A stretch of 64,000 nucleotides of DNA, taken from contig JABVCE010000010.1 of assembly GCA_014905635.1 (NCBI GenBank), positions 744,001-808,000 on the forward strand, written 5' to 3'. Shown here piece after piece: positions 958-60,793 of the stretch. How positions within the stretch are numbered: position 1 is the first letter of the stretch; each line of letters begins with the position of its first letter. The stretch comes from Scenedesmus sp. PABB004 (Eukaryota). Under the pieces are notes generated by a model that saw only the letters and a program-made list of their open reading frames with translations, did not search any database and was not told where the DNA came from. The position numbers and the translations under genes are program-made.

Positions 958-3900
958 ATGGCGGGCGTGCCGCACCCTTCCACGGTGGTGGACGCCGCCG
1001 GCGGCTACGGCGGCGCCGGCGCGCCGCCGGGCGCGCCGCCGGGCGTCGGCAGCCTCAACCAGTCGGCAGAGTTCTTCCTCAGCAATTACCGCCTCGGCAA
1101 GACGCTGGGCATCGGCTCCTTCGGCAAGGTGCGGCGCGGCGGGGGCGGGCCGCGCGGGCGGCGCCGGCGGCCGCCGCCGGGCGCAGCAGCAGCGGCAGAC
1201 GCGGCGGCCGAGGCGGCGGCGCCGATCGCAGGCGCGCCACCGCGCGGCAGCAGCCGCGCCAGCTGCGGCCGCACCAGGCGCGGCCGCGGCGGCCGGGGCC
1301 GGCGCCGCGGCAGCGGCCACGCCGACGCGCCCGCGCCCGCCGCGCCCGCGCCGCGCCGCAGGTCAAGGTCGCGGAGCACATCCTCACGGGGCACAAGGTC
1401 GCGATCAAGATCCTGAACCGCCGCAAGATCCAGGCGATGGACATGGAGGAGAAGGGTGCGCCGCCACGGCGGCGGCGCCGGCGCCGGCGCGCGCGTGCGC
1501 GTGCGCGTGGCGGCGTCGTGCGCGTGCGCGTGGCGGCGGCGTGTGGCGCGCGCCGTGGTGCCGAGCCCTCCCGCCCGCCCGCCTATCCGCGCGGCCGCCG
1601 CAGTGCGGCGCGAGATCAAGATCCTGCGCCTCTTCATGCACCCCCACATCATCCGCCTCTACGAGGTGCGACGCCGCCGCGCCGCCACGCCGCGCCGCGG
1701 CGCGCCCCCACCGGGGGTTCCCTTCCCCCTCCCCGCGCCGTGTGCGCGTCCCCCCCCCCCACACACACACACGCACGCACGCGCCGGGCGCCAGGTGATT
1801 GAGACGTCAACCGACATCTACGTCGTCATGGAGTACGTCAAGGGCGGGGAGCTGTTTGACCACATCGTCGAGAAGGGCCGCCTGCCCGAGGACGAGGCGC
1901 GGCACTTCTTCCAACAGATCATCTCCGGCGTCGAGTACTGCCACCGCAATATGGTCGTGCACAGGCGCGCGGCGCGCGGGGTTCTTCAGGGCGCAGCGGC
2001 GCAGTGCTCAGGCGGGCGCCGAGCGGCGCACGCACCTTGCGCTCTCCGCCCCCCCCCCCCACACACACCACCACCCACCACCACCACCACACACACACAC
2101 ACACACACACACACACACACACACACACACACACACACACACACACACACACACACACCACACACCACACACCACACCCCCCCACCACACCCCCCCCCCA
2201 CCCCCACCCCCCCCCCAGGGACCTGAAGCCGGAGAACCTGCTGCTCGACAGCCGGCTGGCGGTCAAGATCGCCGATTTTGGGCTGAGCAACGTCATGCGC
2301 GACGGCCACTTCCTCAAGACCAGCTGCGGCAGCCCAAACTACGCCGCGCCAGAGGTGCGCGCGCGCGCAGGCGGGGCGTGCGGCGGCGGCGCCGCGCAGG
2401 CAACGGCGAGCAGCGCGCCGCGCGCGCCACCCTTCCGAGCCTCGCGCCACCCTTCCAAGCCTCGCGCCGCCCGCCCGCGCCCGCGGCCCGCGGCCCACAG
2501 GTCATCAGCGGCAAGCTGTACGCGGGGCCGGAGGTCGACGTGTGGAGCTGCGGCGTCATCCTGTACGCGCTGCTCTGCGGCAGCCTGCCGTTTGACGACG
2601 AAAACATTCCAAACCTGTTCAAAAAGATCAAGGGCGGCATCTACAACCTCCCAAGCCACCTCAGCCCGGGTGGGTTGCGCACGCGTGCAACGCCCCGGGG
2701 CGCGCCGCGCCGCGCGCCGTGCGGCCCGCCGCGTCGCGCGCCCGCCGCGTCGCGCCGCGCCGCGCCGCCGCCGACGCGCGCCGCGCCGACGCGCCCCGCG
2801 CCCGCGGCCCTTGCCCCCGCCGCCACAGGCGCGCGCGACCTCATCCCGCGCATGCTGCTGGTCGACCCGCTCAAGCGCATCACCATCCCAGAGGTGCGGC
2901 CACCGCCGCGGCCGCCGCCCGCCGCCGCACTGCCCGCCCGCCCGCACGCGCCTGCCTCGCCGCCGCCGCCCACCCGCCACCGCCCACCCACGCGCCTGCC
3001 TCGCCGCCGCCGCCGCCGCAGGTGCGCTGCCACCCCTGGTTCACGGAGCACCTCCCCCGCTACCTCGCTGTGATGCAGGCCGACACCGCGGTCACCAGCC
3101 CGCGCCTCGACGAGGAGATGATACACGAAGTGCGCCCCGACCCGCGGCGTCCCGCCCCGCAGCGCCACGTGCCGCGCCGCGCCACGCCGGACGCGGCTGC
3201 AGACGCGGCGGACGCGGCGGGCGCTGCCCTGCTCGGCCGTCGCGCGCTGCGCGCGCGCGCGCGCTCACGCGCCGCCGCCGGCGCGCCCCCCAGGTCGTGC
3301 GACTGGGCTTTGACCGCGAGCACCTGGTCAACTCGGTGCGCGGGCGGCAGCAGAACAAGGCGACCGTCACATACTGGCTGCTCCTCGACAACCGCCGGCG
3401 CATGCCCAGCAGCGGCTACCTCTCGGCCGAGCTCAGCGAGGCTGCGGCGCACCACGGCGCCGCGGCGGCGGCGGGCTACGGCGGCCGCGGCGGCGGCGCC
3501 GGCGGCGCGCCCGGCGGCTCCGACGCGGGCGGCGGGCACGGGCTGCCGCAGCAGCGGCTGCTCGCGGAGCGCAAGTGGCGGCTCGGCTGGCACGCGCGCG
3601 GCCACCCGAGCGCGCTCATGGCCGAGCTCTACCGCGTCCTGCAGGCGCGCGCGCGCCGCGCGCGCCGCGGCACACCCCTGCAGCAGCGCGCCGCGCCTCT
3701 TCTTCTGCAGCGTGCCGCCGCCGCCGCCGCCGCCGCCGCGCGTCGCTCACCGCCGCCGCCGCCGCCGCGCGTCGCTCACCGCCGCCGCCGCCGCCGCGCG
3801 CGGGTCATGTCTTTGCTCATGCTTCGCACCACCAGGCCAACCACGTGACGTGGAAGAAGCTGGGGCCCTACAACCTCAAGTGCCTCAAGGTCGTGACCCT

Positions 3901-58700: not shown

Positions 58701-60793
58701 CCGCACGCGCCGCGCCGCGCCGCCCGCGCAGGCCGGCGCGAGCTGGGGCACGGCGAGCTCGCGCAGCGCGCGCTCGCGCCCGCGGTGCCGCCGCAGGCCG
58801 CGTTCCCCTACACCGTGCGCGTGGAGAGCACCATCACTGAGAGCAACGGCAGCAGCAGCATGGCCAGCGTGTGCGGCGGCTGCCTCGCGATGCTCGACGC
58901 GGGTGCGGCCCGCCCCGCCGCCCCGCCCCGCCGCCGCGCCTCGCCCTGCACACTCCTCCGCGCCCCCTCTCGCGCTCTCCCACACGCCCTCCCGCGCCGC
59001 CCTCACGCTGCCCTCCCACGCGCCCTCCCTCGCCGCCCGCCGCCCGCTGCCCGCCGCCGCCGCCCGCCGTGCGCCGCGCGCCCCGCTGGCGCCAGGCGTG
59101 CCGCTGACCGAGCCGGTCGCGGGCATCGCCATGGGCCTCATCCTCGAGCCCGACGGGCGGCACGTGGTGCTCAGTGACATCCAGGGCAGCGAGGACGCGC
59201 TGGGAGACATGGACTTCAAGGTGCGGCGGTGTGGGGGTGTCACAAACAGCAACCAACCACAAGGGCTTAGGGTTTAGGTTTTAGGGTCGGTTTAGGGTTG
59301 GCCGGGCGGGGGCGCGTGGCGTGGCGCGCGAGTGCGTCGCTGCGCCGCGCCGAGCGCCGCCGCCGCCGCGCCGCCGCCGCGCCGCCGGCCGGCCGGCGGC
59401 CAGGTCGCGGGCAGCGCGCGCGGCGTGAGCGCGTTCCAGATGGACATCAAGGTCGAGGGCATCACACTCGACATCATGCGCGCGGTGAGGCCACGCGGCG
59501 CGGCGCGGCGCGGCACATGCCGCGCGGCAGACGAGGCGCTGCCGTCGCCGCCGTGCGCGCACCGCCCGAGCGCCGCCGCCGCGCGCCGCCGCGGCCCGGC
59601 CGCCGCAGGCTCTCGCGCAGGCGGCGGCGGGGCGCGTGCACATCCTGGAGCAGATGGCCGCGTGCAGCCCGCCGCCGGCGCGCGGGCTCAGCCGCTGGGC
59701 GCCCAAGGTCGCGCTCGTGACCGTCCCGCAAGACAAGCTCGGCGCCCTCATAGGCCCGGTGCGGCGCGGCGGGGTGCCCGCGCTGCTACGAGCGCGCCCG
59801 GCGCGCCGCGCGGCGGGCCGCGTGGGCGCACCCCGTGCCGGCCGGCGCCGGCCGCCGATGCACCATCGCTCACCGCCGCGCACCGCACCGCCGCGCCGAA
59901 GGGCGGCAAGACCATCAAGGGCATCACCGCCGCGTCGGGGGCGAGCGACATCGTCATCAACAACAGCGGCTCCGTGCAGGCGCGCCGCGCCGCCGCCGCC
60001 GCCGCCACCGCCGCCCCCCGCCCGCGCCCCGCGCCGGCGGCTGCCGCGCCGCGCCGCGCCGCCGACCCCGCGCGCCGTCACCCCCTCGCCCACGCGCCGC
60101 GCCCGTGCCGCGCAGATCATCGCGCCGAGCGAGGCGGCGCTCGCGGTAGCGCGGGAGCTGATCGCGCTGCAGACGGACGAGCTGCCCGTGGGCACCATCC
60201 TGCGCGGGCGCCGCGTGGAGGGCGTGACGCTGTTCGGCCTCTTTGTCGAGCTCGCGCCCGGCAAGACCGGCCTGGTGCACCTCAGCGAGCTCGCCGAGGA
60301 GGGCGCGCTCACAGAGGTGCCGCCCGAGTGGAAGGTGCGCGCGCCGCAGCGCCGCGGCGTGCCCACGCCGCGGCGCGGGGCGCCGACGCGCCCCGGCCCG
60401 CCCTGGCGCCTGCGCCTGCAGGCGGGGTCTGAGATTGACGTGATGTTCCTGGGCACCACCTCGGACGGCAAGACGCGGCTCAGCCACAAGGGCGTGCTGC
60501 TCACCGATGCGGGCAAGCCGTACGCCTGGACGGGGCCGGCCGCGGGCGGCGGCCGCGGCGGCGGGCGCGGCGGCGGCGGCGAGCGCGGCGGCCGCGGCGG
60601 GGGGGAGCGCGGCGAGCGCGGCGGCGAGCGCGGCGGCGGTGGGGGCGGGTGGTACTCGGGTCCGGCCGGCGACGACGTGGCGCAGCCGCGCACGCCGCGC
60701 GGCGCGGGCGAGGGCGGCAGCTTTCGCGGCGGCCGCGGCGGCGGCCGGGGCGGCGGCCGGGGCCGCGGGCGCAGCGCCGAGGCGGTGCTGTGA
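55764..60793 (+). CDS. PNP1: Polyribonucleotide nucleotidyltransferase (PNPase), probably chloroplast
   Basis: [105 protein letters not shown] ([11 protein letters not shown]) and S1 ([18 protein letters not shown]) domains; RGG tail. Confidence 0.97.
58411..58470. repeat. ACACACTCA-type microsatellite in a PNPase intron
   Basis: acactcaacacacactcaacacacactcacaacacactcaacacacactcacaacactca. Confidence 0.9.
59266..59299 (+). repeat. Short interstitial telomere-like repeat tract (T2-4AGGG)
   Basis: cttaggg-tttagg-ttttaggg-tcgg-tttaggg-tt inside PNPase intron 59221-59403. Confidence 0.8.

What the first reader, a model, noticed from the sequence alone, without database searches (positions are those of the whole stretch)
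1965..59981. Unusually frequent GC-AG introns with an AG|GCRCG donor consensus
Seen: conserved protein motifs or the reading frame require GC donors at 1965 (SnRK1, splitting the HRD Arg codon), 3645, 11497(-), 22731, 26059(-), 32064, 36529(-), 37740, 38165, 40668(-), 43473(-), 56720 and 59980, and possibly 12761. That is 13-14 of roughly 100 introns. All follow an exonic AG and read GCGCG or GCACG. Most GT donors read GTGCG rather than GTRAG. Established: GC-AG introns are usually about 1% in model eukaryotes. Inference: this lineage has a relaxed +2 position and a shifted +4, possibly with altered U1/U6 snRNA or U1C.
Basis: partly seen in the sequence, partly recalled or inferred. Interest (0 to 1): 0.75.

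Follow-up and report, generated by a model that had tools for sequence, protein, structure and literature searches.

The report
Frequent GC-AG introns, GC-rich green alga
In this extremely GC-rich green-alga DNA roughly one intron in ten starts with GC where GT is usual, which is real but already known from other GC-rich algae, and the public gene models of this genome get at least two such introns wrong.

Summary
The window is 78-82% GC. It carries at 100% identity the NCBI protein labelled cfap206 of Scenedesmus sp. PABB004.

Eight of the 14 proposed GC donors are fixed by gap-free alignment to homologues: 1965, 3645, 11497, 36529, 37740, 38165, 56720 and 59980. Four more (12761, 26059, 40668, 43473) have no acceptable GT alternative. 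At 22731 a GC donor is needed, but 22731 and 22764 cannot be told apart. 32064 is unresolved. None was refuted.

The motif alone is not evidence: AGGCRCG occurs 93 times against about 135 expected. Its placement is evidence. It sits at coding-to-non-coding transitions three times as often as control motifs (p=1e-4). A small gene-finding model (HMM) keeps 20-26 high-confidence GC donors against 1-2 GG decoys. My estimate is about 8-15% GC-AG among about 130-165 introns.

GT donors are mostly GTGCG (15 of 18 fixed by homology). Verified GC donors are all CAG|GCGCG.

The snRNA idea could not be tested: no genome, no RNA run, no snRNA gene in the window. So this is a new member of a known kind.

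The parts
1965..2218 (+). GC-AG intron (254 nt) in the SnRK1/AMPK-type kinase gene. It splits the Arg codon of the HRD motif. Donor cag|GCGCGCGG.
   Evidence: gap-free [21 protein letters not shown] against homologue P0004, score 117 against 94 for the best GT donor (2004), which inserts 13 residues. PDB AMPK alignments end and begin at these points.
3645..3835 (+). GC-AG intron (191 nt) in the C-terminal part of the same kinase gene. Donor cag|GCGCGCGC.
   Evidence: [22 protein letters not shown] is gap-free against P0005 and P0007. The alignments of P0003 and P0098 show the same spacing. The GT alternative at 3636 deletes VLQ (scores 70-90 against 96-100).
11377..11497 (-). GC-AG intron (121 nt) in RRM1 of a U2AF65-like splicing-factor gene. 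Donor cag|GCGCGGCG.
   Evidence: on chain 6xlv_A the upstream exon ends at residue 25 and the downstream exon starts at residue 26. The in-frame GT 9 nt upstream would delete VKQ. My gene model (HMM) keeps this intron at a GC prior of 0.01.
12761..12900 (+). Probable GC-AG intron (140 nt) in a gene with no family match. Donor gag|GCGCGCGC.
   Evidence: combined score 30.0 against 18.3 for the best GT donor (donor score -3.3). Kept by the HMM at a GC prior of 0.01. No homologue was available.
22731..22867 (+). Intron in a glycosyltransferase-family gene that needs a GC donor. Donors 22731 (cag|GCACGCGC) and 22764 (gcg|GCGCGGCG) cannot be told apart.
   Evidence: scores 28.5 and 29.3 for the two GC donors, 11.7 for the best GT. 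The HMM instead places micro-exons here, so the junction is not fixed.
25965..26059 (-). Probable GC-AG intron (95 nt) in the DPBB domain of an expansin-like gene. Donor gag|GCGCGCTG.
   Evidence: score 45.5 against 31.6 for the best GT, which deletes VTCNDSE. Kept by the HMM at a GC prior of 0.01. PDB could not fix the upstream exon. Pfam DPBB_1 positions 43-83 match the downstream exon.
32064..32112 (+). Claimed GC donor downstream of the alpha/beta-hydrolase match (31199-31546). Unresolved.
   Evidence: the downstream exon has coding score -5.4. Alternative GC donors at 32059 and 32066 score about the same. No homologue was available.
36371..36529 (-). GC-AG intron (159 nt, in frame, no stop codon) in the mitochondrial ribosomal protein uS13m gene. 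Donor cag|GCGCGCGC.
   Evidence: exon ends align to residues 55|56 of chain 7pkq_m (titled mitochondrial ribosomal protein S13) with no gap. The HMM predicts the same intron.
37740..37849 (+). GC-AG intron (110 nt) in the CFAP206 (FAP206) gene. The deposited model uses GT at 37725 instead and loses the residues VATLQ.
   Evidence: Searches give the deposited junction; the GC donor raises the score in 13 of 16 full-length homologues, and ATLQ aligns to AKLQ.
38165..38276 (+). GC-AG intron (112 nt) in the CFAP206 gene. The deposited model uses GT at 38120 instead and loses 15 conserved residues.
   Evidence: the GC donor adds 32-55 score units in 16 of 16 full-length homologues. VAHLLSLPPHERLAQ aligns without gaps to LARFLTLGEAERTHQ and IARFLTLDEGERLRQ.
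40539..40668 (-). Probable GC-AG intron (130 nt) in a MOC1-type Holliday-junction resolvase gene. Donor cag|GCGCGTGC.
   Evidence: both exons match MOC1 chains in PDB. The alignment is gap-free next to the junction (ILS-RKRDHG against LLK-RKKDHG), with a 4-residue length difference upstream; score 22.8 against 4.7 for the best GT.
43357..43473 (-). Probable GC-AG intron (117 nt) near the 3' end of the Rav1/DMXL-like gene. Donor cag|GCGCGCCT.
   Evidence: score 25.2 against 16.6 for the best GT (donor score -3.4). Kept by the HMM at a GC prior of 0.01. A weak WD40 match lies in the upstream exon.
56720..56815 (+). GC-AG intron (96 nt, in frame, no stop codon) in RNase PH domain 1 of the PNPase gene. 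Donor cag|GCGCGCGG.
   Evidence: 8 of 8 homologues show the same 32-residue gap; no GT solution exists; GC scores 124 and 107.
59980..60115 (+). GC-AG intron (136 nt, shifts the frame) between the KH and S1 regions of the PNPase gene. Donor cag|GCGCGCCG.
   Evidence: [20 protein letters not shown] against P0131 GSIQIVSPTEAALNKARELI, with no gap. The HMM predicts the same intron.
1129..60421 (+). Reference set of 18 GT-AG introns fixed by homology in the kinase and PNPase genes. Donors at 1129, 1456, 1666, 2355, 2670, 2894, 3130, 4327, 56243, 56446, 56904, 57214, 58034, 58903, 59221, 59485, 59759 and 60335. Of these, 15 read GTGCG.

Best explanation
The window is nuclear DNA of a chlorophycean green alga. 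By a 100% protein match it belongs to the genome deposited as Scenedesmus sp. PABB004, which is 78.5% GC.

Its spliceosomal introns are short, with a median of about 115 nt, and use the donor consensus (C)AG|GTGCG(C/G). Roughly 8-15% of them have C where T is usual at +2.

These are ordinary U2-type GC-AG introns. The rest of the donor is a perfect copy of the lineage's own consensus (CAG|GCGCG). That makes up for the base pair lost at +2, so the normal spliceosome still selects the site.

The high frequency most likely comes from the extreme GC-ward pressure on this genome. That pressure turns T into C at +2 wherever strong flanks allow it, as proposed for Emiliania huxleyi and pelagophytes.

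Shown here: where the GC donors lie, that they are needed for conserved protein sequence and reading frame, and that their flanks are stronger than those of GT donors.

Inferred: that the major spliceosome removes them, and that composition pressure is the cause.
For: Eight GC donors give gap-free alignments to homologues, where GT alternatives delete or insert conserved residues. Six of the eight introns are not a multiple of 3 long (254, 191, 121, 110, 112, 136 nt), so they must be removed to keep the frame.

Placement test: 17 of 93 AGGCRCG sites sit at a coding-to-non-coding transition, against 41 of 699 control-motif sites, p=1.3e-4.

Gene-finding model (HMM) trained on three genes, with a donor matrix built from GT donors only. 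Even with a GC prior of 0.002 it keeps 24 GC donors among 163 introns, and it recovers 11 of the 14 claimed sites.

Decoy control at equal penalty: 21-26 high-confidence GC donors, 1-2 GG and 0 GA, p about 0.002.

Compensation: exonic CAG in 8 of 8 verified GC donors against 3 of 18 GT donors, p=1e-4.

Composition: 78-82% GC across the window, and 78.5% for the genome in Table 1 of PMC12571836 (passages).

Precedent, from passages read:
- 56-60% GC-AG in E. huxleyi, ascribed there to GC content (PMC4028052).
- 14-17% in Aureococcus and Pelagomonas (bioRxiv 10.1101/2024.10.30.620910).
- A weak link between genome GC and splice-site GC (PMC7072748).
Against: There is no transcript evidence at all, so every junction is inferred from homology or from a model.

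Two of the eight verified introns (56720 and 36529) are in frame and free of stop codons. In principle they could be retained.

AGGCRCG is common and even depleted: 93 observed against 134.7 expected. 143 GC dinucleotides have flanks as good as the claimed sites. Motif matches alone therefore prove nothing.

The HMM over-calls. Its GC intron at 36286 is contradicted by an unbroken PDB alignment, and it places introns beyond stop codons. Its counts are upper-leaning estimates.

The genes examined by homology were chosen because they held claimed sites, so the 8 GC against 18 GT there is a biased ratio.

My motif-blind junction search in the kinase and PNPase genes found no other GC donor among the junctions it could fix, but some stretches stayed unresolved.

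The causal link to GC pressure is a correlation taken from the literature. It was not tested here.
Confidence: 0.72

Rival explanations
1. The lineage's spliceosome itself has changed. The U1 snRNA 5' end, the U6 ACAGAGA box or U1C would have co-evolved with a G(Y)GCG donor, so that +2 matters little and C at +4 is preferred.
For: The donor consensus departs from GTRAGT at +4. GTGCG is found in 15 of 18 GT donors fixed by homology, and in 48 of 80 HMM donors outside the training genes. GC donors are many times more frequent than in model eukaryotes. Irimia and Roy 2008 raise the same idea for the GTGCGTG donors of Ostreococcus (PMC2483917, passage).
Against: Not tested: no genome, no snRNA match in the window. 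If +2 were truly free, GC donors should look like GT donors. Instead they have stricter flanks, CAG in 8 of 8 against 3 of 18. With C about 7 times as common as T in introns (background 0.487 against 0.066), a free +2 would give mostly GC donors, not about 10%. Other GC-rich algae reach similar or higher rates, and the passages I read report no snRNA change.
Confidence: 0.12
2. The GC donors are artefacts. Either the assembly has T-to-C errors at +2, or the true junctions use nearby GT donors and the proteins differ from their homologues at those points, as the deposited annotation assumes for cfap206.
For: The deposited cfap206 model uses GT donors at 37725 and 38120. For five verified sites an in-frame GT lies 9-45 nt upstream (3645, 11497, 36529, 37740, 38165). 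No read-level check was possible.
Against: The GT alternatives remove residues that are conserved in homologues, for example 15 residues in 16 of 16 CFAP206 homologues and VLQ in the kinase. At 1965 the best GT inserts 13 residues inside the HRD motif. At 56720 there is no GT solution. The alternative GT donors are weak: at the model-supported sites their donor scores are -0.1 or less, against a median of 3.5 for true GT donors. Eight or more independent errors, each exactly at +2 of a perfect donor context, are not plausible.
Confidence: 0.05
3. Some of the in-frame, stop-free GC 'introns' (56720-56815 and 36371-36529) are not spliced. They would be low-complexity coding insertions, of a kind I recall as common in GC-rich algal proteins.
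For: Both have lengths divisible by 3 and no stop codon. Their read-through translation is rich in Ala, Arg and Gly.
Against: Each begins with CAG|GCGCGC and ends with CAG. 8 of 8 PNPase homologues lack the segment, which lies in the conserved RNase PH match. Coding periodicity drops inside both: contrast 0.39 and 0.52. This rival cannot apply to the six frame-shifting introns.
Confidence: 0.05

Closest known systems
GC-AG-dominated splicing in the haptophyte Emiliania huxleyi (Feldmesser et al. 2014, PMC4028052; passages read)
   Same: A GC-rich algal nuclear genome in which GC donors are far above the usual 1%. The acceptor stays AG. Gene predictors that favour GT-AG give wrong models. The authors ascribe the shift to genome GC content.
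   Different: E. huxleyi has 56-60% GC donors at 65% genome GC and is a haptophyte. Here the share is about 8-15% at about 79% GC in a chlorophyte. The relation between GC content and GC-AG share is therefore not simple. There the junctions were confirmed by ESTs and RT-PCR; here they are not.
GC-AG use of 14-17% in the pelagophytes Aureococcus anophagefferens and Pelagomonas calceolata (bioRxiv 10.1101/2024.10.30.620910; one passage read)
   Same: A similar share of GC-AG introns, also ascribed to high genome GC. A lower-GC relative has 0.32%.
   Different: Those are stramenopiles with few introns per gene (0.2-0.9). This alga has many introns per gene, for example at least 11 in the kinase gene.
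Atypical GTGCGTG donor consensus of Ostreococcus lucimarinus (Irimia and Roy 2008, PMC2483917; passages read)
   Same: A green alga whose GT donors read GTGCG, not GTRAGT.
   Different: Ostreococcus is intron-poor, with very strict signals that include a fixed branch motif. The passages I read do not mention frequent GC donors. Here the alga is intron-rich, and I did not look for a branch motif.
Ordinary U2-type GC-AG introns of animals, fungi and plants (Frey and Pucker 2020, PMC7072748, passages read; Kralovicova et al. 2011, PMC3167603, search listing and abstract only)
   Same: GC at the donor, AG at the acceptor, and compensation by strong flanking consensus.
   Different: The combined share of non-GT-AG introns there is about 1.3-2.1%. 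Here GC-AG alone is several times higher.

Membership tests
U2-type GC-AG spliceosomal introns | The intron starts with GC and ends with AG. | tested here: met
   donors; acceptors. All 8 verified introns end in CAG.
U2-type GC-AG spliceosomal introns | Removing exactly this segment is needed to restore conserved protein sequence and reading frame. | tested here: met
   8 of 14 sites give gap-free alignments to homologues. 4 more are supported by frame and coding score only. 2 are unresolved.
U2-type GC-AG spliceosomal introns | The donor otherwise matches the organism's major-type consensus and not the U12-type box (RTATCCTT, recalled). | tested here: met
   The claimed GC sites score 1.8-5.8 (median 4.25) on a matrix built from GT donors only, with +1 and +2 left out. 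Leave-one-out GT donors have a median of 3.5. None reads ATCC.
U2-type GC-AG spliceosomal introns | Flanking donor positions are closer to consensus than in GT introns (compensation). | tested here: met
Exonic CAG in 8 of 8 against 3 of 18, p=1e-4. Exonic AG in 8 of 8 against 10 of 18, p=0.03.
U2-type GC-AG spliceosomal introns | The spliced junction is seen in transcripts. | not testable with these tools
   No RNA run was listed, so read laying could not be used.
GC-rich algae with raised GC-AG use (E. huxleyi and pelagophyte type) | Nuclear genome GC well above 60%. | tested here: met
   78-82% GC in every 4-kb bin. 78.5% for the genome in PMC12571836.
GC-rich algae with raised GC-AG use (E. 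huxleyi and pelagophyte type) | GC-AG share far above 2% of introns. | tested here: met
   Floor: 8 verified among 163-180 modelled introns, about 4-5%. With the 4 supported sites: 12 of 132-166, about 7-9%. HMM with decoy control: 21-26 of about 134 high-confidence introns, 16-19%, with about 2-4 false calls expected once GG counts are scaled to GC frequency. This is one 64-kb window only.
Lineage with altered U1/U6 snRNA or U1C | The U1 5' end or the U6 ACAGAGA box differs from the eukaryotic standard in a compensating way. | not testable with these tools
   No whole genome is held. No Rfam family reaches its gathering score in the window.

The most novel reading that the evidence does not exclude
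The spliceosome of this lineage has been re-tuned to a G(Y)GCG donor. The U1 5' end, U6 or U1C would be changed so that +2 contributes little and C at +4 is read positively. This would make one of the most GC-rich eukaryotic genomes a natural experiment in the co-evolution of splice sites and snRNAs.
Probability: 0.12. Interest if true: 0.75.

Novelty: new member of a known kind. Interest (0 to 1): 0.42.

Why it matters
This adds a chlorophyte, with about 79% GC, to the short list of eukaryotes in which GC-AG introns are common rather than rare. It gives a further data point for how base composition shapes splice signals. Here GC content is higher than in E. huxleyi, yet GC donors are fewer, so composition alone does not set the rate.

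There is also a practical side. The deposited cfap206 model of this genome picks weak in-frame GT donors and loses 5 and 15 conserved residues. The exon queries for the kinase and the PNPase found no 100%-identical protein in the collection. The genome is listed with only 7,092 genes (PMC12571836). Re-annotation that allows GC donors would probably change many gene models of a strain used in algal biotechnology.

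Tried and rejected
- RNA evidence: the look-up of sequencing runs on 31001-41000 listed no RNA holder, after a length slip. None was listed, which is no evidence either way. Read laying therefore could not be used.
- Whole genome: none is held, so U1 and U6 could not be sought. Rfam at gathering threshold finds nothing in the window.
I sent stop-free segments instead.
- Motif enrichment as evidence was rejected. AGGCRCG is depleted (93 against 134.7 expected), while AGGTGCG is enriched (49 against 18.6).
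- PDB search with CFAP206 exon 3 gave only a chance hit.
- PDB could not place the upstream exon of the expansin gene, so 26059 stays model-supported.
- Pfam on single exons gave no usable coordinates for 12761, 40668 or 43473. For uS13m the profile has a 21-position gap between the exon matches, so Pfam did not fix that junction; the PDB alignment did.
- Variable, low-complexity stretches of the kinase (about 4030-4260) and the PNPase (57340-57860, 58250-58700) gave no reliable junctions. They were left out of the fixed set.
- The HMM's extra GC donors were not accepted as findings (for example 14424, 19087, 20339, 23163, 23294, 41536, 47217, 47429, 48805, 51925, 52799). One of them, 36286, is contradicted.
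- Sense against antisense counts of the motif inside introns (6 against 19) fit the C-rich sense strand of introns. I did not take them as selection against decoy donors.
- Literature: 'GC-AG' with 'Scenedesmus' gave 2 papers, both on cyanobacteria by their titles. 'PABB004' gave 15 papers, 10 listed, none on splicing by title or abstract start. I found no report of splice-site use in this genome. Supplements of the papers cited were not opened.
- Earlier notes of this scan hold nothing on this genome.

Full report
**What the window is.** Every 4-kb bin is 78-82% GC. Pfam matches on stop-free segments with coding periodicity give a dense map of eukaryotic genes on both strands. They include a SnRK1/AMPK-type kinase, an RRM protein, PfkB, CFAP91, a glycosyltransferase, an expansin-like protein, CP12, a Ras-family GTPase, ribosomal protein S13, FAP206, Rav1 and PNPase. 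The closest kinase homologues come from Monoraphidium, Tetradesmus and Raphidocelis, which belong to the Sphaeropleales (order per the table seen). The NCBI protein labelled cfap206 of Scenedesmus sp. PABB004 (P0177) maps to 37393-39921 at 100% identity, exon by exon. A comparative paper lists that genome at 39.8 Mb, 78.5% GC and 7,092 genes (PMC12571836, passages).

**Is the motif more than chance?** All 14 sites read AG|GCGCG or AG|GCACG. In this composition that means little. AGGCRCG occurs 93 times on both strands, against 134.7 expected from dinucleotide shuffles. AGGTGCG occurs 49 times against 18.6 expected. 143 GC dinucleotides have flanks as good as the claimed sites. The claim therefore had to be tested site by site.

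**Homology tests.** I wrote a junction refiner. It takes tblastn matches of a homologue, lists every GT or GC donor and every AG acceptor nearby, keeps the in-frame combinations without stop codons, and scores the joined peptide against the homologue with BLOSUM62.
- Kinase gene: 8 junctions are GT (1129, 1456, 1666, 2355, 2670, 2894, 3130, 4327) and 2 are GC. Donor 1965 gives [21 protein letters not shown] without a gap, score 117; the best GT scores 94 and inserts 13 residues into the HRD motif. Donor 3645 gives ...[13 protein letters not shown], while the GT at 3636 deletes VLQ.
- PNPase gene: 10 junctions are GT and 2 are GC. At 56720, 8 of 8 homologues show the same 32-residue gap and no GT solution exists. 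At 59980, [13 protein letters not shown] aligns without a gap to GSIQIVSPTEAAL of P0131.
- CFAP206 gene: the deposited model uses GT donors at 37725 and 38120. In 16 of 16 full-length homologues the GC/GC model scores highest. The 15 residues VAHLLSLPPHERLAQ align without gaps to LARFLTLGEAERTHQ and IARFLTLDEGERLRQ.
- uS13m gene: with donor 36529 the exon ends fall on residues 55 and 56 of chain 7pkq_m.
- U2AF65-like gene: with donor 11497 the exon ends fall on residues 25 and 26 of human U2AF65 chain 6xlv_A.

Six of these eight introns are not a multiple of three long, so they cannot be coding insertions.

**The other six sites.** For each site I listed all frame-compatible donor and acceptor pairs and scored donor, acceptor and coding potential.
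- At 12761, 26059, 40668 and 43473 the claimed GC donor wins by 8-18 units, and the GT alternatives have donor scores of -0.1 or less.
- At 40668 both exons match MOC1 resolvases in PDB, and the alignment is gap-free next to the junction.
- At 22731 a GC donor is needed, but 22731 and 22764 tie.
- 32064 stays unresolved.
- PDB could not fix the expansin junction at 26059.

**Window-wide, motif-blind estimates.**
- Placement test. A contrast of coding periodicity (GC3 minus GC2, 75 nt upstream against 75 nt downstream) reaches 0.3 or more at 24 of 49 AGGTGCG sites and at 17 of 93 AGGCRCG sites. At control motifs it does so at 41 of 699 sites, Fisher p=1.3e-4. That is an excess of about 11 sites, and 11 of the 17 are claimed sites.
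- Gene finder. I built a small hidden-Markov gene finder, trained on three plus-strand genes, with a donor matrix made from GT donors only. It predicts 163-180 introns, 132-135 of them with confident exons on both sides. At a GC prior of 0.002 it keeps 24 GC donors, 20 of them high-confidence, and recovers 11 of the 14 claimed sites. At 0.01 it recovers 12. It reproduces the 4 GT introns of the deposited cfap206 model.
- Its faults. It over-calls: its GC intron at 36286 is contradicted by an unbroken PDB alignment, and it places introns beyond stop codons.
- Decoy control. With GC, GG and GA allowed at the same penalty, it picks 21-26 high-confidence GC donors, 1-2 GG and 0 GA, although GG is half as common as GC (p about 0.002).

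Putting these together, I estimate 8-15% GC-AG. The hard floor is 8 verified introns among about 165.

**Donor anatomy.** GT donors fixed by homology read GTGCG in 15 of 18 cases. Outside the training genes the gene finder's GT donors read GTGCG in 48 of 80 cases and GTRAG in 9 of 80. All 8 verified GC donors read CAG|GCGCG. Exonic CAG is found in 8 of 8 GC donors against 3 of 18 GT donors, p=1e-4. My motif-blind refinement in the kinase and PNPase genes found no other GC donor among the junctions it could fix, though some stretches stayed unresolved.

**Mechanism.** Stronger flanks at GC donors are what established knowledge of U2-type GC-AG introns leads one to expect. Losing the +2 pair with U1 is offset by pairing at the exon end and at +3 to +6; the pairing scheme is recalled, not tested here. 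If +2 were truly free, most donors should be GC, because C is about 7 times as common as T in these introns. I therefore favour ordinary splicing under strong GC-ward pressure.

**Comparison with what is known.**
- GT-AG makes up 97.9-98.7% of introns in plants, animals and fungi (PMC7072748, passages).
- E. huxleyi has 56-60% GC donors, and predictors biased to GT mis-model its genes (PMC4028052, passages).
- Aureococcus and Pelagomonas have 14-17% GC-AG (bioRxiv 10.1101/2024.10.30.620910, one passage).
- GTGCGTG donors are described as atypical in Ostreococcus (PMC2483917, passages).
- Earlier notes of this scan report the same two patterns on other DNA.
- I found no paper on splice sites in this genome.

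**Verdict.** The mechanistic inference is open and not needed. This is a new member of a known kind, with a practical consequence for the annotation of this genome.

Noticed in passing
window 37393-39921 (+): The deposited protein model of cfap206 (P0177) uses weak in-frame GT donors at 37725 (gcc|GTGGCA) and 38120 (agc|GTCGCG). It lacks 5 and 15 residues that homologues conserve. Its other four introns agree with my gene model.
   Followed up: yes
window 1792-1962 (+) and 57043-57216 (+): Searches with one exon of the kinase and one of the PNPase returned no 100%-identical protein: at most 96% and 84% identity. A cfap206 exon did find its own deposited protein. These two genes may be missing or mis-modelled in the deposited annotation, which lists only 7,092 genes.
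   Followed up: no
window 26622-27304 and 28736-29409 (+): A direct duplication of about 0.7 kb at 97-99% identity, about 2.1 kb apart. It carries the same predicted exon-intron pattern in both copies (donors at 26909, 27055, 27232 and at 29019, 29160, 29337).
   Followed up: partly
whole window, both strands: The heptamer AGGCRCG is depleted against dinucleotide shuffles: 93 observed, 134.7 expected, and all 100 shuffles had at least 93. Inside predicted introns it is rarer in sense (6) than in antisense (19). The C-rich sense strand of introns may explain part of this, and avoidance of decoy donors is not excluded.
   Followed up: partly
window 11185-11584 (-): The gene with the GC-AG intron at 11497 is a U2AF65-like splicing factor. 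The intron lies in its first RRM domain.
   Followed up: partly
window 36233-36286 (-): My gene finder calls a 54-nt GC-AG intron here (gag|GCGCGCAC) with a strong periodicity contrast. The PDB alignment to uS13m runs through it unbroken, so it is a false call. This is a warning for model-only GC donors.
   Followed up: yes
If some are real, the GC-AG share is higher than claimed. None was checked by homology.
   Followed up: no
window 56720-56815 (+), 36371-36529 (-): Two verified GC-AG introns are in frame and free of stop codons. In a genome this GC-rich, retaining such an intron would add residues without ending the protein early.
   Followed up: no
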